This document shows positions 1 through 27,914 of a stretch of 27,914 nucleotides of DNA, piece after piece (the stretch's first letter is position 1; each line of letters opens with the position of its first letter). Under the pieces are notes generated by a model. The model ran no database searches and was not told the DNA's origin. It worked only from the letters and a program-made list of their open reading frames with translations. The position numbers and the translations under genes were made by a program. Source of the DNA: a virus (taxonomy: Duplodnaviria; Heunggongvirae; Uroviricota; Caudoviricetes); IMG/VR virus record IMGVR_UViG_2913118216_000009, one strand, 5' to 3'.

Positions 1-597
1 ATGAGTAACAACAAAAAGTCGCATTATGAGGATATGAAGAAGTTGTTGTGCGCGGACATACTGCACAGTAGTAAAAAATTCTCCTGGAGGAGAATCATAC
101 TACGTTGCTGGAGACAACCCGGACACAGATTCATGTGTTGGTGGAGGATAGCGAATTGCCTTTACTGTCAGGGAGGGAAATCAAGTATTAAGTGGGCACG
201 AAGAATCCACCGGAGACTTGTTTCAAAATACAATACTGATATTGGATTGGGGGCACAGATCGGGGAAAAATTCAAAATTTATCACTTCGTTGGAATAGTC
301 ATTTGTCCCCAGGCTGTGATTGGCAAAAATGTTCGTATCCGACAAAACACAACGATTGGATTAAAAACAGTTGAAGGAATCAAAGCCATCAGGATCGGAG
401 ACAATGTCGAGATTGGTGCAAATTCATGCATCATCGGTGATGATCTGACCATTGGTGATAACGTGACAATTGGTGCTATGTCATTCGTTAACCGAAACAT
501 TCCTGCTAATAGTGTCTTTATAACCCGCAGAGCCGCACAACTACTACCGCTTGATACGCACTCCACCTCTAACTATTCTGAACAACACAACAAGTGA
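1..597 (+). CDS. Hexapeptide-repeat (left-handed beta-helix) O-acetyltransferase, CysE/WbbJ-like; probable moron or flanking host gene
   Basis: 198-aa ORF starting at window position 1; repeated [LIV]-G-x-x-x-x hexapeptides (IGDNVEIGANSCIIGDDLTIGDNVTIGAMSFV) and an N-terminal region resembling serine acetyltransferases; markedly AT-rich codon usage compared with neighbouring phage genes; convergent with the tail operon. Confidence 0.7.
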   Translation: MSNNKKSHYEDMKKLLCADILHSSKKFSWRRIILRCWRQPGHRFMCWWRIANCLYCQGGKSSIKWARRIHRRLVSKYNTDIGLGAQIGEKFKIYHFVGIVICPQAVIGKNVRIRQNTTIGLKTVEGIKAIRIGDNVEIGANSCIIGDDLTIGDNVTIGAMSFVNRNIPANSVFITRRAAQLLPLDTHSTSNYSEQHNK

Positions 598-651
598 AAT
601 ACTGCTATCAGTAAGTCCCGAACGTTTCAACTTATCATGTGAGTGTCAGCA

Positions 652-2355
652 TTAGGCAATAATCCCCTGATATTTTTCCCGGGTCTGCCCGGCTTTCGTC
701 CCTGTCTGGGTGAACGCGGCGGCATTGGTTGGCGTCCCAACGGAGGGGTGCGAATGGCTCGCGCATTGCTGCGCCAGCTCTTCCAGTAAATCAATGGTGT
801 CCAGCATCATGGTTAGGGCGTTGATACTCTCACTGCCAATATGGACAGTTGCCCCCATGACCTGCTGACCTCCAGCGGCCACTGATTTACGCAATGCGGC
901 AATCTTCTCTGTCAGGCTTTCGCCAACCTCCACGGCTACAGCACCACCCACTTTAGTAGACTGCCGTCCTGTTATGTCCGTTTCTTCGTTTCCTTCAATA
1001 CTGGACAACCTGTTACCTTTCACCGCCTGGCTATAATCACCGGTGCTGACCTGCTGGATGGCTCCAGCCAGCAATATGGCGGTTCCCAGTACCGTAGTTT
1101 TATCCGTAGCTTTCACCGTGGTTTCACGGCTTACCAGTTCGCGCTGTTCCGTATCGGCTTTTACGGTTCGCGCCATTGATGTTTCGCTGATGGTGTGATC
1201 GGTCTGCCTTACCCAGTCTCCAGCCTGAGTCACCCTCTGCGATACTTCTTCCCGCTGCTGCTGCAATTGCTCACCGGGTTTAACGTCCGGCAGGCTGGTA
1301 CCATCCGGCAGCGTCTGCCTGATAAAGGGTTTATCCGGTCTGCCTCCCGTGAATGCAACCTCAACCAGCGTCCCTTCTGGCGGAAACTGGAACATGCCTG
1401 AATCATTCCCGGCCATCGGTACCGGCAACGGCACCGCTGAATAAACAGGCGTCTGATTGTCCGGGTTTCCGTCTGCGTCAAGCAACTGCACGTCCACGGC
1501 ATAACGTGGCCGGAAAGGATCGGCAAAGTTACCGCTTTTTACCGGCTCTGAATACGCCACGACTCTGGCCATCTTTGGCAAATGAAGCCCGGATGCCAGT
1601 TCAGGGTAATGGCTTTCAATCTGCCTTTGTGCTGGTGTTTTCTGCAAAGGTTTACCCGTTACGCGGTTTCTCGGCATCCATGTGATCGCCATCGTGTCAT
1701 TCGTCAGATGAACCTTAGTCACGCGCTCACCGTTCATCTCCACCCCTGGCCGCATAGTCTGGATCACTGGTAATGTTACAGAGTTACCGCCAGCAGCCCC
1801 CTGGCTGAACTCTGATGGGATTTCTACGGGACGACCGGCAAACAATGACTTTTCTGCGCCACCGACGTAAAGCGAACCATCAGGAAACTGGTACCAGATG
1901 TAATCCTGGATACTGAACGCCCTTCCCAGATTGTTCAGCAACTGATAACCAGTACCGTTATGGGTAAAATGTGGGATAGGGGTATCGCTGTACTGTGCGT
2001 CAGGCACACTGACCGTGATCCCGCTGTGTTCTTCCAACCAGACCGCAATTTCACGCAAAGTCGGGTGTTGAAACGAACATGGCCACATCCTTTCAAACAC
2101 ACCTGCCAACTCACGAATGAACAGACGCTGAAAACCGTTTTCAGCAGGCTGCGATCGCTCCACGTACCCCGTAAACCAGCGCAAAAGCAGATCAGTATAC
2201 CCCACATCCAGCCGCACCAGTTTTCCGGTGTAATCTGTTGTTGTCTCTGCGGTGATGAAGCCCCGGCCGCAGCTGTTCAGCTCCAGTACCAGGCTGGCAT
2301 CCACCAGGTGAACTTCATCCGTTGAAAGGTATAGGCGTTTTACTGGTTTCATCAT
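652..2355 (-). CDS. Baseplate hub / central spike protein (gp27/gpD/VgrG-like N-terminal region with a long C-terminal extension)
   Basis: 567-aa ORF ending the tail operon; N-terminal segment (LLRWFTGYVERSQP...LFIRELAGVFERMW...TLREIAVWLEEHSGITV) resembles the pattern I recall for the gp27/GPD/VgrG hub fold; start overlaps the stop of the upstream gene. Confidence 0.45.
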   Translation of the reverse strand: MMKPVKRLYLSTDEVHLVDASLVLELNSCGRGFITAETTTDYTGKLVRLDVGYTDLLLRWFTGYVERSQPAENGFQRLFIRELAGVFERMWPCSFQHPTLREIAVWLEEHSGITVSVPDAQYSDTPIPHFTHNGTGYQLLNNLGRAFSIQDYIWYQFPDGSLYVGGAEKSLFAGRPVEIPSEFSQGAAGGNSVTLPVIQTMRPGVEMNGERVTKVHLTNDTMAITWMPRNRVTGKPLQKTPAQRQIESHYPELASGLHLPKMARVVAYSEPVKSGNFADPFRPRYAVDVQLLDADGNPDNQTPVYSAVPLPVPMAGNDSGMFQFPPEGTLVEVAFTGGRPDKPFIRQTLPDGTSLPDVKPGEQLQQQREEVSQRVTQAGDWVRQTDHTISETSMARTVKADTEQRELVSRETTVKATDKTTVLGTAILLAGAIQQVSTGDYSQAVKGNRLSSIEGNEETDITGRQSTKVGGAVAVEVGESLTEKIAALRKSVAAGGQQVMGATVHIGSESINALTMMLDTIDLLEELAQQCASHSHPSVGTPTNAAAFTQTGTKAGQTREKYQGIIA

Positions 2356-19242: not shown

Positions 19243-20300
19243 GTAAAAAGAAACGCTTTGTTAAGCGCGACCAGCGCGGCGACAAATCAAAAAAGATGAG
19301 CATTATCACATTCGGCAAACCTGAACCGGTTCTGACTACCGGCACAGATTACCGTGATATCTGGTACGACAATGCCGCCGATCACTTCACCCAGCCGATT
19401 GACCGGCTGGCACTCGCACAGCTGATTAATCTTAACGGTCAGCACGGCGGCATCATTCACGCCCGCAAAAACATGATTGTTTCAGATTACTTGGGTGGCG
19501 GACTTATTCACGACCAGCTGGAAGCGGCAGCGTATGACTATATAACCTTTGGGGATATTGCGATTGCCAAAATTCGTAACGGCTGGGGAGACGTGATCGC
19601 ACTTGAACCCTTACCCGGTCTGTATATACGCCGCCGCAAAGTCAGAGATAACGCCCTGGATAAGCCCGGTGACTACGTAGTGTTACAGGAAGGGGAACCG
19701 CAGATATGGCCAGAAGAAGATATTATCTTTATCAAAATGTATGACCCGCAACAGCATATCTACGGACTGCCGGACTACATCGGCGGTGTGCATTCCGCGT
19801 TACTTAACAGTGAAGCGGTCATTTTCCGACGCCGCTACTACCACAACGGTGCACACACAGGCGGAATTCTTTATACCCGCGATCCCAGCATGACGGACGA
19901 AATGGAGGAAGAAATTGAACAGCAGCTGCGTGACAGCAAAGGGATCGGGAACTTCTCCACCATCCTTGTAAACATTCCCGGCGGAGACGGCGACGCCATC
20001 AAGTTCATTGAAATGGGTGATATTTCTGCTAAGGATGAATTTGCCAACATCAAGAACATCAGCGCACAGGACATTCTGAACGCGCACCGTTTCCCTGCCG
20101 GCCTCGCCGGTATTGTCCCGCAGAATACTGCCGGACTGGGGGATGTTGAAAAGGCTGAACGCATTTATAAGAAAAGCGAAATTGCGCCCATCCAGCGCCG
20201 TTTCATGCTGGCCGTTAACAACGATCCCGAAATACCGGAAAGGTTGCACCTAAACTTTGATTTAAGTTACATAGAATCAATAGATAAAGGTGCGGCATGA
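19239..20300 (+). CDS. Portal protein, P2 gpQ-like
   Basis: 353-aa ORF coupled to the terminase large subunit gene; size and order as in P2. Confidence 0.8.
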   Translation: MSKKKRFVKRDQRGDKSKKMSIITFGKPEPVLTTGTDYRDIWYDNAADHFTQPIDRLALAQLINLNGQHGGIIHARKNMIVSDYLGGGLIHDQLEAAAYDYITFGDIAIAKIRNGWGDVIALEPLPGLYIRRRKVRDNALDKPGDYVVLQEGEPQIWPEEDIIFIKMYDPQQHIYGLPDYIGGVHSALLNSEAVIFRRRYYHNGAHTGGILYTRDPSMTDEMEEEIEQQLRDSKGIGNFSTILVNIPGGDGDAIKFIEMGDISAKDEFANIKNISAQDILNAHRFPAGLAGIVPQNTAGLGDVEKAERIYKKSEIAPIQRRFMLAVNNDPEIPERLHLNFDLSYIESIDKGAA

Positions 20301-20620
20301 TGCGAAACTGGCTAAAATCCATGCTTCATTTAACAGCTGGAGCATGGAATATGCGAGTTCTGAAAATCGAATGCCCGGAATGCGGCTCAAAGGCTGTTAT
20401 TCGTAAAACGAACAGGAAGCATCGGCAAATTGCAGATATTTACTGCGCCTGTTCAGATGTTGAATGTGGCCACACATTTGTTATGAATCTGACATTTTCC
20501 CACACTCTCAGCCCCAGCGCTAAAACGGGTGATGCGGTGGTGCAAAAAATACTGAGTGCACTTTCTCCCGCTCAGCGCCAGGTAGCATTAGATTTACTGA
20601 AAGTGACTCCCGCTGCCTAA
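20297..20620 (+). CDS. Ogr/Delta-family zinc-finger late transcription activator (start may be the internal Met near 20351)
   Basis: CPECGSKAVIRKTNRKHRQIADIYCACSDVECGHTF has the same cysteine spacing and Y..C....C..TF pattern as P2 Ogr as I recall it. Confidence 0.65.
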   Translation: MMRNWLKSMLHLTAGAWNMRVLKIECPECGSKAVIRKTNRKHRQIADIYCACSDVECGHTFVMNLTFSHTLSPSAKTGDAVVQKILSALSPAQRQVALDLLKVTPAA

Positions 20621-24536: not shown

Positions 24537-25040
24537 TCATATCAGGCCGGTGGCATTGATTGTGACCAGCGCTACCGCAGCGGCCAGGACGGGCGTAGAG
24601 TGAAAACGACTTTCCACGGTATAAGCCAGCACGGATAAGCTACGAATTGCATCGCGGGCGCGATCCAGAATTTGAGTACGACGAGCGGCAGTCATATGGC
24701 AAGTTGATACGGCTTCCCCAGCAATCGCCCCCACGCACGCAGTGGCGCTAAGAGCACACAGTTGCATGTTGCCTTCAGTGGCATTATTCACAGGCACGGA
24801 TGGCAGGCAGTTAATTTGGCTTAACATCCCATCCAGTAAACGTGCATCTTCGGTGTAATCCGTAATGGATATAAGCTCATCGCACGTTAAACGGTGCGGT
24901 TGCGCTGGATTTAGTTTGTTGCGCAGGATCTGCGGCCTTATACCAACGGCAACAGCCACATCTTCAAGATTGTGCTCAATTGCAAATGCTCGGCAAGCCG
25001 CATCAAATCGCGCATGTTTAGAGATCTGGTAATCAAACAT
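24537..25040 (-). CDS. CII-like lysogeny establishment regulator (phage 186 CII type)
   Basis: 167-aa ORF, second gene of the leftward operon diverging from the repressor gene; size and position match 186 CII. Confidence 0.55.
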   Translation of the reverse strand: MFDYQISKHARFDAACRAFAIEHNLEDVAVAVGIRPQILRNKLNPAQPHRLTCDELISITDYTEDARLLDGMLSQINCLPSVPVNNATEGNMQLCALSATACVGAIAGEAVSTCHMTAARRTQILDRARDAIRSLSVLAYTVESRFHSTPVLAAAVALVTINATGLI

Positions 25041-25070: not shown

Positions 25071-25352
25071 TTACGCGTTAAGTGAAATATCACATTCACT
25101 TAAAGCCTGAATGGTTAGCGCGGCCATGTTGACCTCAACCAGGCCTTTCTTCTGCTTACCCTTAGGTTTAATGGGCAATTTCCCGTATTCGATCAGATTT
25201 CTGGCAGTTTCTTTGTTTGTACCAGTACGACGGCAATATTCGTCTAAAGGCAGGTAAGGTTCCGGTATGATGATTGTAATGCTCGGACGCATAAGGCAAA
25301 CTCCATTAGTCAACCTGTACGGTAATACAGGGCTGTAACTGTCAATATTCAC
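25071..25352 (-). CDS. Apl/Cox-like small DNA-binding protein (excisionase / switch regulator); probable start at internal ATG near 25292
   Basis: First gene of the operon divergent from the repressor; about 73 aa from the internal Met; basic helix-turn-helix-like segment (TGTNKETARNLIEYGKL). Confidence 0.5.
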   Translation of the reverse strand: MNIDSYSPVLPYRLTNGVCLMRPSITIIIPEPYLPLDEYCRRTGTNKETARNLIEYGKLPIKPKGKQKKGLVEVNMAALTIQALSECDISLNA

Positions 25353-25411: not shown

Positions 25412-25990
25412 GTGAAGCTACAAATTGAATTTTCTCATGGCGGATCAGAAGTCTTGGACAGAGTCATCCAGGCGTATGGTTTCAACACAAAATTAGCCCT
25501 GGCCGAACATCTTGATATAGCAAGTAGCAGCCTGGCTAATCGCTACAAGAGGGATTTTTTTCCAGCAGATATCGTTGTTAGATGCATGGCTGAAACGGGA
25601 GCAACTCTGGAATGGCTTGCGACTGGGCAAGGAAGAAAGTTTAACGATGACGAATTAGACATCATGAAACTGCCGCGTAAGAAGATTGTGGACGGAAAAC
25701 TCTATGATTCCGGTTTGCTAATGCTCGATAAGGTTACTTTTTTACCTGGTAAGCCTTTACCACAGAATCCAATCTGTGTGATTGACAACGCAATGCAGTA
25801 CATTGTTGATCAACACTTTCCCGAAGTTTACGACGATGATTGGTTAGTTGAAATTGAAGGAAAAACAAGTGTGAGAACCCTTACGCGCATCCCCGTAGGC
25901 AAAGTTCGAGTGAGTGGCGTTGGGATGGCATTTGATTGCGCTATCGAAGATATAAAAATTTTAGGTCGTATTATCTTAACTATAAAATAA
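25412..25990 (+). CDS. Immunity repressor, phage 186 CI type
   Basis: 192-aa ORF (GTG start with AAGGAAAAA Shine-Dalgarno), same length as 186 CI as I recall it; transcribed towards the integrase gene and divergent from the Apl/CII operon; no LexA/S24-type cleavage motif seen. Confidence 0.6.
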   Translation: MKLQIEFSHGGSEVLDRVIQAYGFNTKLALAEHLDIASSSLANRYKRDFFPADIVVRCMAETGATLEWLATGQGRKFNDDELDIMKLPRKKIVDGKLYDSGLLMLDKVTFLPGKPLPQNPICVIDNAMQYIVDQHFPEVYDDDWLVEIEGKTSVRTLTRIPVGKVRVSGVGMAFDCAIEDIKILGRIILTIK

Positions 25991-26004
25991 TAAGGAAAAT
26001 TATA

Positions 26005-26574
26005 ATGATAGATTACAAGACTGCATCTAAAGACCAATTAAAAGTAGAAATGAAACGATTGTCTGCCGCTGTTTCAGATACGCCATTTGGTACAAAAAAA
26101 GAATTTTTTCATCTTCCCGAAGTTTTAAACACCGGCGAGGAACCGCTTGGCATAGTAAGCGGTATGATGGATGGCAACACCTGGTTAATAACTTTAACTA
26201 ACCAACGCGTTATCTTCCTCGATAAAGGGATGATATTTGGTGTTAAGCAGGTCGATATTAGCCTTCGTAACATTGTAAGCGTTGGCGGAAAGACTGGACT
26301 GATATTTGGTGAGATAATGATTTCAACAAGCGGACAGAATTACACCATAAAAAACGTTATAAAATCCTCCGTAATTCCTTTTACCAACCTTGTTAATGAG
26401 ACAAGGAATAGTCTGGACAAGCCACAAGTTATCACCGCTCCTACAAGCTCCAACGAAAAATCTTCATTTGATGATGTCATGGATAAAATTGAACGTTTGG
26501 CTGAAATGAAAGCAGAAGGCATTCTTACTGAAGAAGAATTTCAGCAGCAAAAACAACGCATTTTAAACAGCTAA
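26005..26574 (+). CDS. PH-domain plus SHOCT-domain protein (moron between repressor and integrase)
   Basis: ATG at about 26005 with AAGGAAAA Shine-Dalgarno; central region resembles bacterial PH (YdbS/YokE-like) domains; C-terminus IERLAEMKAEGILTEEEFQQQKQRIL matches the SHOCT motif; strongly AT-rich. Confidence 0.6.
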   Translation: MIDYKTASKDQLKVEMKRLSAAVSDTPFGTKKEFFHLPEVLNTGEEPLGIVSGMMDGNTWLITLTNQRVIFLDKGMIFGVKQVDISLRNIVSVGGKTGLIFGEIMISTSGQNYTIKNVIKSSVIPFTNLVNETRNSLDKPQVITAPTSSNEKSSFDDVMDKIERLAEMKAEGILTEEEFQQQKQRILNS

Positions 26575-26577
26575 GCT

Positions 26578-27618
26578 ATGTCTGTAAGAAAATTAACAAA
26601 TGGCCAGTGGATTGCCGATTTCTACACGGTGGATCGAAGCAATGGTAAAGCCGGTAAGCGTATTCGTAAAAAATTCGCTACAAAAGGCGAAGCCCTGGCC
26701 TACGAGAACTATACGCTTCAGCAAGTGGAGAACTCCCCCTGGCTTGGCGAGGGTAAAGACCTCCGTACTCTAAGCGACCTAATCAACATGTGGTACGAAC
26801 GCCACGGCGTAGCTTTGCGCAACGGTCAAAAGCGTAAAGACGCAATGACATGGGCGGCGGAGTGTATGGGATTCCCGCTGGCCACAGAGTTTAATGCTCA
26901 ACTGTTTACAGCATACCGCGCAAAAAGGCTTGATGGGCATTATGCCCGCACTAACAGAGTATCCAAGGTTTCCCCGAAAACAATGAACCTTGAACATGCT
27001 TACTTTCTGGCTATGTTCAATGAGCTTAAACGGATTGGAGAATGGTCAGCCCCTAACCCACTGGAAAACGTCAGACAGTATCGCACTGATGAAACCGAAA
27101 TGGCTTTCCTCACTGCTGAAGAAATTGATCGGCTTTTGCTGGAATGCAAACGCAGTAAAGTAAGTTACTTAGAGTTAGTAGTAAAAATTTGCCTGGCGAC
27201 CGGCGCAAGGTGGAATGAAGCGGCGACACTCAAAAGCTCCCAGATTGCTGGCGGAAAAGTCACCTTCATAAAAACAAAAGGGAAAAGGAACCGTACCATT
27301 CCCTTAGATGATGAACTTCTGGCTGAAATTTCGGAAACAAAAGGCGCTCTGTTTCCGAAGCCCTGCTATAACGCTTTTCGTTCCGCCCTGGAACGTGCAG
27401 GTATTGAATTGCCTTCTGGTCAGCTAACCCACGTATTACGCCATACATTTGCCAGCCACTTTATGATGAATGGCGGGAACATTCTGGTTCTGCAAAAAAT
27501 TCTCGGCCACGCTGACATCACTATGACAATGCGTTATGCCCATTTCGCCCCAAGCCACCTTGAAGATGCTATGCGACTTAACCCCTTAAAATGTCGCAAA
27601 AATGTCGCTGCAGCTTAG
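26578..27618 (+). CDS. int: Tyrosine integrase (P2/186 family site-specific recombinase)
   Basis: 346-aa ORF; C-terminal catalytic region HVLRHTFASHFMMNGGNILVLQKILGHADITMTMRYAHF with the conserved R...H-x-x-R...Y arrangement; located at the prophage end. Confidence 0.9.
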   Translation: MSVRKLTNGQWIADFYTVDRSNGKAGKRIRKKFATKGEALAYENYTLQQVENSPWLGEGKDLRTLSDLINMWYERHGVALRNGQKRKDAMTWAAECMGFPLATEFNAQLFTAYRAKRLDGHYARTNRVSKVSPKTMNLEHAYFLAMFNELKRIGEWSAPNPLENVRQYRTDETEMAFLTAEEIDRLLLECKRSKVSYLELVVKICLATGARWNEAATLKSSQIAGGKVTFIKTKGKRNRTIPLDDELLAEISETKGALFPKPCYNAFRSALERAGIELPSGQLTHVLRHTFASHFMMNGGNILVLQKILGHADITMTMRYAHFAPSHLEDAMRLNPLKCRKNVAAA

Positions 27619-27785
27619 AAATACTGCCGAATACTCACAGATATTAACTAACGTAACTTATTGATAACACTGTAAGTTATTGTTTTTCGTAGATAGTTGA
27701 TGCTTTATAATATAGCCTGTGCTATATCTGTATGTAATGCAATCATCCCTCATGGAACGACGGGATTAGCAAGTCAGGAGGTCTT
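27619..27785. other. Putative attP / prophage-host junction region
   Basis: AT-rich non-coding stretch directly downstream of int; direct repeats AACTTATTG / AAGTTATTG; an IHF-consensus match (TATCAATAAGTTA on the minus strand, about 27655-27667); small palindrome ATATAG..CTATAT. Confidence 0.35.
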
Positions 27786-27914
27786 ATGAATGAGTTCAAG
27801 AGGTGTATGCGCGTGTTTAGTCACTCTCCCTTTAAAGTACGCTTAATGCTGCTCTCGATGTTGTGCGATATGGTCAACAACAAACCGCAGCAAGATAAAC
27901 CTTCCGATAAATAG
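27786..27914 (+). CDS. Small ORF (about 42 aa) with strong ribosome-binding site; prophage moron or host flank
   Basis: AGGAGG about 6 nt upstream of the ATG; translation MNEFKRCMRVFSHSPFKVRLMLLSMLCDMVNNKPQQDKPSDK ends at the window edge; below the ORF-track length cutoff. Confidence 0.35.
   Translation: MNEFKRCMRVFSHSPFKVRLMLLSMLCDMVNNKPQQDKPSDK

What the first reader, a model, noticed from the sequence alone, without database searches (positions are those of the whole stretch)
26005..26574. AT-rich PH-domain/SHOCT gene inserted between repressor and integrase
A 189-aa gene with its own strong ribosome-binding site sits between the CI-like repressor and int, a position that is usually gene-free in P2/186-type phages. 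It is far more AT-rich than surrounding phage genes, which is typical of a horizontally acquired moron. The protein combines a bacterial PH-like domain with a C-terminal SHOCT motif, an architecture with no established function. Because it is co-transcribed with the repressor, it would be expressed in the lysogen, making it a candidate superinfection-exclusion or anti-phage factor.
Basis: partly seen in the sequence, partly recalled or inferred. Interest (0 to 1): 0.7.

Follow-up and report, generated by a model that had tools for sequence, protein, structure and literature searches.

The report
Prophage PH-SHOCT gene between repressor and integrase
A small AT-rich gene wedged between the repressor and integrase genes of a 186-type prophage encodes a soluble PH-like + SHOCT protein whose lactococcal phage relatives, paired with a protease-like protein, confer phage resistance, so it is a good but unproven candidate for a factor that protects the lysogen from other phages.

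Summary
A 189-aa ORF (26005..26574, +) lies between a 186-type cI and int. It has its own AAGGA ribosome-binding site, 38% GC against 50% for the window, and Pfam bPH_3 plus SHOCT domains. A closely related E. coli prophage at the same mntS site has cI and int 1 nt apart, so this is a gene-sized insertion.

It is not core. Of the 80 nearest CI relatives in IMG/VR, 37 carry it, 37 have an empty junction and 5 carry other AT-rich cargo, one of them alongside the PH gene. It is under strong purifying selection (dN/dS about 0.05).

The same architecture sits in the lysogeny module of Lactococcus, Staphylococcus, Streptococcus and Blautia phages. TP901-1 ORF2 is reported 100% identical to SieF7/2A. 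With ORF3, a metalloprotease-like protein, it gives phage resistance. bIL285 orf2 is named sie285 but was not among the genes reported to confer resistance.

The protein has no TM helix. Fusions and a conserved 3-TM neighbour elsewhere place the module on the cytoplasmic face of the membrane.

Best reading: a lysogen-expressed phage-exclusion factor acting at the membrane. This is a new enterobacterial member of a known, mechanistically unsolved kind. Interest is moderate.

The parts
25412..25990 (+). 186-type CI repressor gene (192 aa), first gene of the lysogenic operon
   Evidence: Pfam Phage_CI_repr 2.1e-25 and Phage_CI_C 1.2e-30. It is 93% identical to the CI of E. coli 573.
25991..26004 (+). 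14-nt spacer TAAGGAAAATTATA carrying the Shine-Dalgarno AAGGA (25992-25996), 8 nt before the ATG
   Evidence: Read from the sequence. The same layout, cI stop then 10-16 nt with AAGGA then ATG, is seen in most of the other PH-carrying prophages examined.
26005..26574 (+). PH-SHOCT gene (189 aa, 21 kDa, pI 5.6, no TM helix)
   Evidence: ORF. Pfam bPH_3 + SHOCT. PHROG 2700, unknown function, 6e-72. GC 38.2%. dN/dS 0.049. The identical protein is on 13 public contigs.
26029..26124 (+). N-terminal helix (aa 9-22) and the conserved FGTKKE..LP motif (aa 28-38) preceding the PH domain
   Evidence: Secondary structure from the AF2 model. K31, E33, L37 and P38 are invariant from Lactococcus to Escherichia. 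K32, E33 and P38 are invariant in 71 proteobacterial homologues.
26125..26418 (+). PH-like domain: seven beta-strands (aa 47-119) capped by a C-terminal helix (aa 120-138)
26419..26466 (+). Variable, disordered linker (aa 139-154)
   Evidence: pLDDT below 50 at aa 143-150. This region has no conserved columns in the alignments.
26467..26568 (+). SHOCT helix-hairpin (aa 155-170 and 176-188)
   Evidence: Pfam SHOCT 3.1e-09. Helices in the AF2 model. G172, E178, F179, K183 and L187 are invariant across phyla.
26575..26577 (+). 3-nt spacer (GCT) between the PH-SHOCT stop and the int ATG, close enough for translational coupling
   Evidence: Read from the sequence. A 1-4 nt gap is seen in nearly all of the other PH-carrying prophages examined.
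26578..27618 (+). Tyrosine integrase gene (346 aa), last gene of the operon
   Evidence: Pfam Int_N 5.8e-31 and Phage_integrase 3.7e-25.
27786..27914 (+). Host mntS, marking the chromosomal flank to the right of the prophage
   Evidence: About 97% identical to the mntS region of 5,392 E. coli genomes. Pfam MntS on the matching public contigs.

Best explanation
The gene is an accessory ('moron') gene that sits inside the cI-int lysogenic operon of a 186-type, P2-related prophage, so it is made in the lysogen.

Its product is a soluble cytoplasmic protein. It has a short N-terminal helical region with a conserved FGTKKE..LP motif, a PH/GRAM-like beta-sandwich, a flexible linker and a C-terminal SHOCT helix-hairpin.

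I infer that SHOCT, possibly with the PH domain, holds the protein at the inner face of the cytoplasmic membrane. There it would bind a membrane component or an incoming phage component and interfere with an early step of infection by heterologous phages. That would be superinfection exclusion or a related membrane-level defence, which benefits both host and prophage.

Shown here: the gene, its domains and fold, the insertion, its presence or absence among relatives, purifying selection, the recurrent lysogeny-module position across phyla, and homology to TP901-1 ORF2.

Taken from the literature: the phage-resistance phenotype of ORF2 + ORF3 (= SieF7/2AB), and detection of the bIL285 homologue in the lysogen proteome.

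Inferred: expression from the lysogenic promoter, membrane-proximal location, and the anti-phage role in this host without the metalloprotease-like partner.
For: 1. Position and expression signals.
- The gene has its own SD, lies 14 nt after cI and 3 nt before int, and no promoter or terminator was detected between them.
- This junction layout recurs in most of the 37 other PH-carrying prophages.

2. Accessory but selected.
- E. coli 573 has cI and int 1 nt apart at the same mntS site.
- Among the 80 nearest CI loci, 37 are empty, 37 carry the PH gene and 5 carry other AT-rich cargo, one of them together with PH.
- dN/dS is 0.049.

3. The same architecture sits in the repressor-integrase interval of unrelated temperate phages: TP901-1, phiMR25 and Blautia Montmirail.

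4. Experimental precedent.
- TP901-1 orf2/3 are reported 100% identical to SieF7/2AB. When cloned they reduce EOP and plaque size of skunaviruses and give complete resistance to P087 and WRP3 (PMC7693887).
- The window protein aligns to ORF2 at 34% identity, E 3e-25.
- bIL285 orf2 is named sie285 and was detected in the proteome (PMC6127208).

5. Membrane proximity.
- There is no TM helix.
- In fusion proteins a TM helix follows 25-110 residues after SHOCT.
- In 13 loci from other lineages a conserved 3-TM protein of about 90 aa is encoded immediately downstream.
- SHOCT-like domains were independently predicted to anchor domains to the inner leaflet (PMC11237479).

6. The slot itself. A cI-int defence hotspot is described for K139-like P2-related vibriophages (PMC9122126). 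The int-primase interval is a minor defence hotspot of P2-like prophages (PMC13586616).
Against: - No phenotype exists for any enterobacterial member.
- The lactococcal resistance was measured for ORF2 together with the metalloprotease-like ORF3, described as acting synergistically. That partner is absent here, because int follows directly.
- The review of IL1403 lists resistance only for sie309 and sie312, not for sie285.
- PADLOC has no model matching this protein or its Gram-positive homologues.
- Most family members in species-representative genomes are not next to a 186-type CI or an integrase. Only 6-7 of about 76 neighbours are. The family is therefore not phage-specific.
- bIL285 carriage changes lysozyme and nisin sensitivity and autolysis, which points to an envelope effect that need not be about phages.
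- PH folds are generic binding modules, and the fold search gave no functional hint.
Confidence: 0.5

Rival explanations
1. Envelope or membrane-physiology conversion factor. The protein alters membrane or cell-envelope properties of the lysogen, such as stress tolerance, autolysis or sensitivity to antimicrobials. Any effect on phages would be secondary.
For: - bIL285, whose orf2 is a homologue, raises lysozyme and nisin sensitivity and delays autolysis. The authors propose orf2 as the mediator (PMC6127208).
- The TP901-1 lysogen is also more sensitive to these agents.
- SHOCT-like domains are associated with PSP envelope-stress systems.
- Many homologues lie in chromosomal, non-phage contexts. 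Examples are the six Sodalis, Acerihabitans and related enterobacterial loci next to a FAD monooxygenase and a MiaB-like gene.
- Others pair with a 3-TM protein.
Against: - The envelope phenotypes were measured for whole prophages, never for the gene itself.
- Increased sensitivity to antimicrobials looks like a cost, not a selected benefit.
- The cloned orf2/3 pair does give phage resistance.
- The recurrent position in the lysogeny module, next to other exclusion-type cargo, fits defence.
Confidence: 0.25
2. Accessory regulator of lysogeny. The protein modulates repressor, integrase or prophage induction, for example by sensing a membrane or physiological signal and feeding it into the switch.
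For: - The gene is always placed between the repressor (or the repressor plus ImmA-like protease pair) and the integrase in phages of very different lineages.
- It is separated from int by only 1-4 nt, which suggests coupled expression.
- In Firmicutes it is adjacent to the ImmA/IrrE-like protease that normally controls the repressor.
Against: - About half of the closest relatives, with similar CI and Int, do without it.
- It accompanies unrelated repressor types (186 CI against HTH_3/ImmR-like regulators), and the TP901-1 integrase is far larger (485 aa) than the 346-aa tyrosine integrase here.
- Most homologues in genomes have no repressor or integrase neighbour.
- It has no DNA-binding or catalytic motif.
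Confidence: 0.12
3. Abortive-infection-type sensor or effector rather than an entry block. The protein senses an infection cue at the membrane and triggers growth arrest or membrane damage, through a host partner or, in other lineages, through the 3-TM protein.
For: - There is a conserved small 3-TM neighbour in 13 loci.
- SieF7/2AB and orf2/3 give reduced plaque size and partial EOP drops against some phages. Such phenotypes are, to my knowledge, also typical of abortive-infection systems.
- Related PHb domains form oligomeric rings and were proposed to cap membrane complexes (PMC2817789).
Against: - No 3-TM partner or effector domain is encoded with the gene here or in the other 186-type prophages. 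The exception is L144, which adds an unrelated multi-TM protein.
- There is no toxicity evidence.
- This is a sub-case of the anti-phage explanation, and sequence alone cannot separate the two.
Confidence: 0.1

Closest known systems
TP901-1 ORF2 / SieF7/2A of the lactococcal two-component SieF7/2AB system
   Same: - Same bPH_3 + SHOCT architecture and similar length (181 against 189 aa).
- 34% identity, E 3e-25.
- Shared FGTKKE..LP motif.
- Located in the lysogeny module between repressor and integrase.
- No TM helix was found in the window protein.
   Different: - The lactococcal gene is followed by an ImmA/IrrE-like metalloprotease gene (ORF3, Peptidase_M78). Resistance was shown for the pair. 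Here there is no such partner.
- The host is Gram-negative.
- The repressor is 186-type and the integrase is a 346-aa tyrosine recombinase. TP901-1's annotated integrase is much larger, 485 aa.
bIL285 orf2 ('sie285') and Staphylococcus phage X2 ORF15 / phiMR25 orf3, the phage group of distant PF08000 (PHb) homologues noted by Xu et al. 2010
   Same: - Homologous over 86-91% of the query at 35-37% identity.
- The phiMR25 homologue lies in the lysogeny module between repressor and integrase.
- PMC2817789 recognises bIL285 ORF2 and X2 ORF15 as PHb-domain proteins and notes PHb1 genes in phage lysogeny modules.
- The bIL285 product was detected in the proteome.
   Different: - The staphylococcal proteins carry an N-terminal extension of about 55 aa.
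- The phiMR25 homologue lies beside a PemK/MazF-like gene and an annotated metallo-protease.
- No resistance phenotype is reported for sie285.
Sie2009-type lactococcal superinfection-exclusion proteins and P22 SieA
   Same: They are prophage-expressed. Sie2009 is encoded in the lysogeny module and is thought to impede phage DNA injection.
   Different: [quoted passage not shown] P22 SieA, from my own knowledge, is an inner-membrane protein. The window protein has no TM helix (maximum 19-residue hydropathy 1.21) and no sequence relationship to Sie2009 was seen in the searches run here.
cI-int defence hotspot of K139-like P2-related vibriophages (Rousset et al. 2022) and the P2/P4 hotspot concept
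   Same: [quoted passage not shown]
   Different: - In 186-type enterobacterial prophages the slot is nearly binary. It is either empty or holds PH-SHOCT, with only 5 of 80 loci carrying other cargo.
- The cargo has no recognised defence domain.
- PH or SHOCT terms do not occur in the text-held supplementary tables of that paper.
PHb1/PHb2 (PF08000) bacterial PH domains with solved structures
   Same: PH-like beta-sandwich with a C-terminal helix. They are proposed to cap membrane-associated complexes and to bind proteins rather than lipids.
   Different: - A different Pfam family (bPH_3, not bPH_1).
- No sequence-level match to any PDB chain.
- The oligomeric state here is unknown.
- The extra SHOCT hairpin and N-terminal motif are absent from PHb1.

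Membership tests
Pfam bPH_3 (PF14470, YokE-like bacterial PH domain) | Sequence match to the family HMM above the gathering score | tested here: met
   67.2 bits against a cut-off of 23, full-length match 1-95 of 95 at aa 41-132.
Pfam bPH_3 (PF14470, YokE-like bacterial PH domain) | PH fold: seven-stranded beta-sandwich capped by a C-terminal helix | tested here: met
Pfam SHOCT (PF09851) | HMM match above the gathering score, at the C-terminus, forming a two-helix hairpin | tested here: met
   36.7 bits against a cut-off of 27, aa 160-187 of 189. Helices at 155-170 and 176-188.
SieF7/2AB-type two-component lactococcal exclusion system (TP901-1 ORF2 + ORF3) | Component A: a PH + SHOCT protein homologous to ORF2 | tested here: met
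   BLASTP 34% identity over 167 aa, E 3e-25. Same Pfam architecture.
SieF7/2AB-type two-component lactococcal exclusion system (TP901-1 ORF2 + ORF3) | Component B: an adjacent zinc-metalloprotease-like (ImmA/IrrE, Peptidase_M78) gene | tested here: not met
   TP901-1 ORF3 matches Peptidase_M78. In the window the gene is flanked directly by cI and int, with no further ORF in the interval.
SieF7/2AB-type two-component lactococcal exclusion system (TP901-1 ORF2 + ORF3) | Location in the lysogeny module between repressor and integrase, on the repressor strand | tested here: met
   Window order is cI-PH-int. TP901-1 order is cI-ORF3-ORF2-int.
SieF7/2AB-type two-component lactococcal exclusion system (TP901-1 ORF2 + ORF3) | Confers resistance to heterologous phages when expressed | not testable with these tools
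   Known only for the lactococcal pair (PMC7693887). There are no data for any enterobacterial homologue.
Sie2009-type superinfection-exclusion proteins | [quoted passage not shown] | tested here: not met
   Maximum 19-residue Kyte-Doolittle hydropathy is 1.21, so no TM segment. The N-terminus is polar.
Prophage defence-hotspot cargo (P2/P4 hotspot concept) | Lies between two conserved phage genes at a site with turnover of unrelated cargo | tested here: met
   Among the 80 nearest CI loci, 37 are empty, 37 carry the PH gene and 5 carry other AT-rich genes, including a TM + WYL protein, multi-TM proteins and a protein with a hydrophobic, signal-peptide-like N-terminus. Turnover is limited, because one cargo dominates.
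Prophage defence-hotspot cargo (P2/P4 hotspot concept) | Recognised defence protein or defence-associated domain | tested here: not met
   No PADLOC model matches this protein, TP901-1 ORF2 or phiMR25 orf3.

The most novel reading that the evidence does not exclude
PH-SHOCT proteins form a large, cross-phylum family of single-gene, TM-less anti-phage factors that work from the cytoplasmic face of the membrane. They would act on a conserved step of phage genome entry or early infection, and in some lineages they would use a dedicated 3-TM partner. The family has 654 clusters at 50% identity with E <= 1e-10. It has spread independently into the repressor-integrase slot of both Gram-positive siphophages and Gram-negative P2/186-type myophages. 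Under this reading, the metalloprotease-like 'partner' of the lactococcal system would be part of the repressor switch rather than of the exclusion function.
Probability: 0.3. Interest if true: 0.7.

Novelty: new member of a known kind. Interest (0 to 1): 0.5.

Why it matters
If the protein excludes phages, it would be one of the most common lysogen-expressed protection genes of 186-type prophages in Enterobacterales. About half of the nearest relatives carry it.

It would also link to a 20-year-old, mechanistically unsolved lactococcal system, in a host where genetics, phage panels and membrane biochemistry are easy.

It would give a first function to the bPH_3 + SHOCT architecture. That architecture has hundreds of clusters across bacterial phyla and no solved structure.

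It would add a defence type that is missing from the PADLOC release searched here (v2.0.0, 2023).

If it instead changes envelope properties, it would be a widespread lysogenic-conversion gene that affects sensitivity to membrane-active agents.

Tried and rejected
- PADLOC gave no match for the window protein, its Gram-positive homologues, the alternative cargo or the 3-TM partner, apart from a weak WYL hit in L090.
- Megablast of the cI-int region against phage genomes found only a 124-bp integrase match to Cronobacter phage ESSI-2.
- A profile search of PDB sequences found no credible relative.
- The BFVD fold search found only unannotated PH or SHOCT phage proteins.
- Literature searches for 'YokE' and 'bPH_3' returned irrelevant papers. 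A search for SHOCT + PH domain + prophage returned none.
- Mahony et al. 2008 (PMC2570291), which tested the IL1403 sie candidates, is not held. The status of sie285 therefore rests on a secondary description.
- The supplements of Rousset 2022 held as text contain no PH or SHOCT terms.
- I considered that the gene might be a core 186-lineage gene. This is rejected because 37 of 80 relatives have an empty junction.
- I considered that it might be a spurious ORF. This is rejected by dN/dS of 0.049, the Pfam matches and the homologues.
- I looked for a TM segment or signal peptide and found none.
- I looked for attL/attR repeats between the window ends and found none of 12 nt or more.
- The second low-GC patch of the window, near 9.9-10.3 kb, lies in the ORFs just upstream of the long 655-aa gene I read as the tape measure. 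It is next to a LysC/Rz1-like lysis gene, so it is not another moron.
Full report
**1. The observation**

The window carries most or all of a small P2-related prophage with a 186-type control region. It contains:
- a CII gene (24537..25040, -), an Apl-like gene (25071..25352, -), cI (25412..25990, +) and int (26578..27618, +);
- a 591-aa and a 353-aa ORF that I read as terminase and portal, an Ogr/Delta-like gene and a 673-aa ORF that I read as the replication gene, upstream of these;
- host mntS at the right end, about 97% identical to E. coli.

Between cI and int lies an ORF of 189 codons, 26005..26574.
- It starts 14 nt after the cI stop. The spacer is TAAGGAAAATTATA, with AAGGA 8 nt before the ATG.
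- It ends 3 nt before the int ATG.

Pfam gives bPH_3 (67.2 bits, cut-off 23) and SHOCT (36.7 bits, cut-off 27).

The gene is 38.2% GC against 50.1% for the window. Only 0.8% of 570-bp windows are as low.

No promoter-like or terminator-like site separates the three genes on the + strand.

The same 189-aa protein is called on 13 independent public contigs in the same CI-PH-Int-mntS context.

**2. It is an insertion into a polymorphic slot, not a core gene**

E. coli strain 573 has a related prophage at the same mntS site. Its CI is 93% identical, and its cI stop and int start are 1 nt apart. The window therefore differs by exactly one gene with its own ribosome-binding site.

Only one of 5,426 complete E. 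coli genomes carries the gene. That genome, EC22, has it in another 186-type prophage at a different attachment site, again in the order cI-PH-int.

I scanned IMG/VR with an alignment of 186-type CI proteins and kept the 80 best loci. I then located CI, PH and Int in each by tblastn.

| State of the cI-int junction | Loci (of 80) | Unique CI sequences (of 62) |
|---|---|---|
| Empty (0-20 nt) | 37 | 29 |
| PH gene present | 37 | 27 |
| Other cargo only | 4 | 4 |
| Undetermined | 2 | 2 |

One of the 37 PH-carrying loci (L144) carries a second gene as well.

The other cargo is also AT-rich, at 31-34% GC:
- a 304-aa TM + WYL protein;
- 238-aa and 251-aa multi-TM proteins;
- a 146-aa protein with a hydrophobic, signal-peptide-like N-terminus;
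- a pair of genes of 112 and 249 aa.

The four closest CI relatives at 93% identity have an empty junction. A fifth, at 92%, carries the TM + WYL gene instead. The state therefore changes over short evolutionary distances.

In most PH-carrying loci the layout is the same: cI stop, 10-16 nt with AAGGA, ATG, and then 1-4 nt between the PH stop and the int ATG.

Orthologues are under strong purifying selection. The median dN/dS is 0.049, and synonymous sites are saturated against the window copy.

**3. The protein**

The AlphaFold2 model has mean pLDDT 90 and pTM 0.71. It shows:
- an N-terminal helix (aa 9-22);
- two short helices around a conserved FGTKKE..LP motif;
- a seven-stranded sandwich (aa 47-119) capped by a helix (aa 120-138);
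- a disordered linker (aa 139-154);
- a two-helix SHOCT hairpin.

No PDB chain matches at the sequence level. BFVD gives only unannotated phage 'PH' or 'SHOCT' proteins.

There is no TM helix and no signal peptide. The maximum 19-residue hydropathy is 1.21, and the pI is 5.6.

No catalytic or DNA-binding motif was detected.

**4. The family**

The word-indexed search finds 356 relatives. All of those listed as named are called 'PH domain-containing protein' or hypothetical, and they sit at 50-85% identity across Enterobacterales.

The exhaustive search finds 654 clusters at 50% identity with E <= 1e-10, and 1,633 with E <= 1e-3.

One-genome-per-species loci span Proteobacteria, Firmicutes, Spirochaetes, Fusobacteria and candidate phyla. 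Only 6-7 of about 76 neighbours are a 186-type CI or an integrase, and all of those are in Enterobacterales. The remaining contexts are heterogeneous.

Two features bear on location.
- In 13 loci from other lineages, a conserved protein of about 90 aa is encoded immediately downstream on the same strand. It has about 70 residues of continuous hydrophobic sequence, roughly three TM helices, and no Pfam match.
- In longer relatives where the PH-SHOCT module is N-terminal, a TM helix follows 25-110 residues after SHOCT, and a large further region follows that (P0159, P0166, P0213).

With no N-terminal signal sequence, these features place PH-SHOCT in the cytoplasm next to the membrane.

This agrees with an independent comparative-genomics prediction that SHOCT-like domains anchor diverse domains to the inner leaflet (PMC11237479).

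Other fusions add N-terminal zinc ribbons, ankyrin repeats or a GYF-like domain. That pattern fits an adaptor or binding role.

**5. Relatives in other temperate phages, and what is known experimentally**

tblastn against 50,697 phage records finds 46 hits:
- one Salmonella phage at 81.5% identity;
- the rest at 32-44% identity in temperate phages, mainly of Staphylococcus (28), Lactococcus (6) and Streptococcus (4), plus Lactobacillus, Blautia, Anoxybacillus and Moraxella.

Where I looked at annotation, the gene lies in the lysogeny module.
- TP901-1: cI, ORF3 (Peptidase_M78-like), ORF2 (PH-SHOCT), int.
- phiMR25: regulator, metalloprotease, PH-SHOCT, PemK-like gene, int.
- Blautia Montmirail: regulator, small ORFs, PH-SHOCT, a 343-aa ORF, int.
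- Moraxella Mcat13: the gene sits among genes annotated as coat and tail proteins instead.

All have the bPH_3 + SHOCT architecture. The window protein aligns to TP901-1 ORF2 at 34% identity, E 3e-25.

PMC7693887 states that TP901-1 Orf2/3 are 100% identical to SieF7/2AB, a two-component system described in 2002. It also shows that cloned orf2/3 reduce EOP and plaque size of two skunaviruses and give complete resistance to P087 and WRP3.

PMC6127208 calls bIL285 orf2 'sie285' and says it was detected in the L. lactis proteome. It reports injection-blocking resistance only for sie309 and sie312. It also shows that bIL285 carriage increases lysozyme and nisin sensitivity and delays autolysis, and it proposes orf2 as a possible cause.

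Xu et al. [quoted passage not shown]

The architecture is therefore not without precedent. However, the activity of the PH-SHOCT protein on its own has, as far as the papers I could read show, not been demonstrated.

**6. The slot**

Rousset et al. 2022 describe a defence hotspot between cI and the integrase of K139-like P2-related vibriophages.

A 2026 census lists the integrase-primase interval as a minor defence hotspot of P2-like prophages, holding 8% of their systems.

Neither paper mentions PH or SHOCT in its main text, nor do the Rousset supplements that are held as text. No supplements are held for the 2026 census.

In this window the classic Q-A hotspot holds only an Ogr/Delta-like gene. 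The PH-SHOCT gene is therefore the main accessory cargo of the prophage. The only other candidate is a hexapeptide acetyltransferase gene at the left edge.

**7. Interpretation**

The best-supported account is a lysogen-expressed accessory protein that works at the cytoplasmic face of the inner membrane and protects the lysogen from other phages.

The position, compact operon structure, insertion, turnover, selection, fold and homology are shown here. The phage-resistance phenotype is borrowed from a 34%-identical homologue that was tested only together with a second protein absent here.

Expression from the lysogenic promoter, membrane proximity and the anti-phage role in Enterobacterales are inferences. 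I put this reading at 0.5.

Rivals:
- An envelope-physiology conversion factor (0.25). It is supported by the bIL285 phenotypes, the SHOCT-PSP links and the many non-phage contexts.
- A lysogeny-switch accessory (0.12). It is disfavoured because half of the close relatives lack the gene and because it accompanies unrelated repressor and integrase types.
- An abortive-infection variant of the anti-phage reading (0.1). Sequence alone cannot separate it from the main reading.

**8. Comparison, novelty and score**

By sequence and architecture, the protein belongs to the same family as TP901-1 ORF2, SieF7/2A and sie285.

It does not meet the two-component definition of that system, because no metalloprotease partner is present. 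It is also not a Sie2009-type membrane protein.

It is a new, enterobacterial, stand-alone member of a known but mechanistically unsolved kind.

Interest is moderate (0.5). Nothing here would astonish a specialist. Still, the gene is common and conserved across phyla at the same place in lysogeny modules. It is absent from the PADLOC release searched here, and it sits in a host where its function can be tested directly.

Noticed in passing
L028:3028-3297, L029:5563-5832, L034:5546-5815, L036:886-1152, L039:5555-5818, L041:1507-1779, L045:3978-4250, L048:5550-5822, L056:5550-5828, L057:5482-5763, L061:5570-5842, L063:1924-2193, L078:393-665: A conserved protein of about 90 aa with roughly three TM helices and no Pfam or PADLOC match is encoded immediately downstream of the PH-SHOCT gene, on the same strand, in 13 loci from non-enterobacterial lineages. 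It looks like a dedicated membrane partner. It is absent from the window and from the 186-type prophages.
   Followed up: partly
L090:4587-5501; L091:2397-3113; L113:4605-5045; L127:4610-5694; L144:5246-6001: Alternative AT-rich cargo (31-34% GC) occupies the same cI-int slot in related prophages. It comprises a 304-aa TM + WYL protein, homologous multi-TM proteins of 238 and 251 aa (one of them next to a PH-SHOCT gene), a 146-aa protein with a hydrophobic, signal-peptide-like N-terminus, and a gene pair of 112 and 249 aa whose first product contains an HPD tripeptide. None matches a known defence model beyond the weak WYL hit.
   Followed up: partly
window 1-597 (+): A 198-aa hexapeptide-repeat (LbH) acetyltransferase gene starts exactly at the window's first base. 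It lies next to a 567-aa protein with weak baseplate-spike (gp5/V-like) matches. It may be a second accessory or lysogenic-conversion gene at the other end of the prophage.
   Followed up: partly
window 20297-20620 (+): The interval between the 353-aa ORF I read as the portal and the 673-aa ORF I read as the replication gene is the classic P2 defence hotspot. Here it holds only a 107-aa Ogr/Delta-like zinc-finger gene and no defence cargo.
   Followed up: yes
P0121, P0122, P0148, P0157, P0158, P0173 (library proteins): Some relatives contain the PH-SHOCT unit in tandem, with 3 to 7 matched stretches in proteins of 460-1,090 aa. Others fuse it to N-terminal zinc ribbons, ankyrin repeats or a GYF-like domain, or to a C-terminal TM helix followed by a large further region.
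   Followed up: partly
L016, L017, L020, L021, L022, L024 (Sodalis, Acerihabitans and an unclassified Enterobacterales MAG): In these genomes the homologue lies next to a FAD-dependent monooxygenase gene and a gene with the UPF0004 + radical-SAM + TRAM domains I read as MiaB-like. I saw no adjacent integrase or CI. It therefore appears to be a stably chromosomal copy.
   Followed up: no
L002:3542-4222 (Staphylococcus phage phiMR25 orf2): Between the PH-SHOCT gene and int, the staphylococcal phage carries a 226-aa protein with a PemK/MazF-like toxin domain. This is another likely lysogeny-module moron.
   Followed up: no
window 25071-25352 (-): The Apl-like ORF is 93 aa from a GTG start in the mechanical ORF list, but it is called as 73 aa on the matching public contigs and in E. 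coli 573. The shorter form is probably the real one.
   Followed up: no
window 1-1500 versus 27601-27914: No direct repeat of 12 nt or more links the two ends of the window. The left attachment site of the prophage is therefore either outside the window or shorter than 12 nt.
   Followed up: partly
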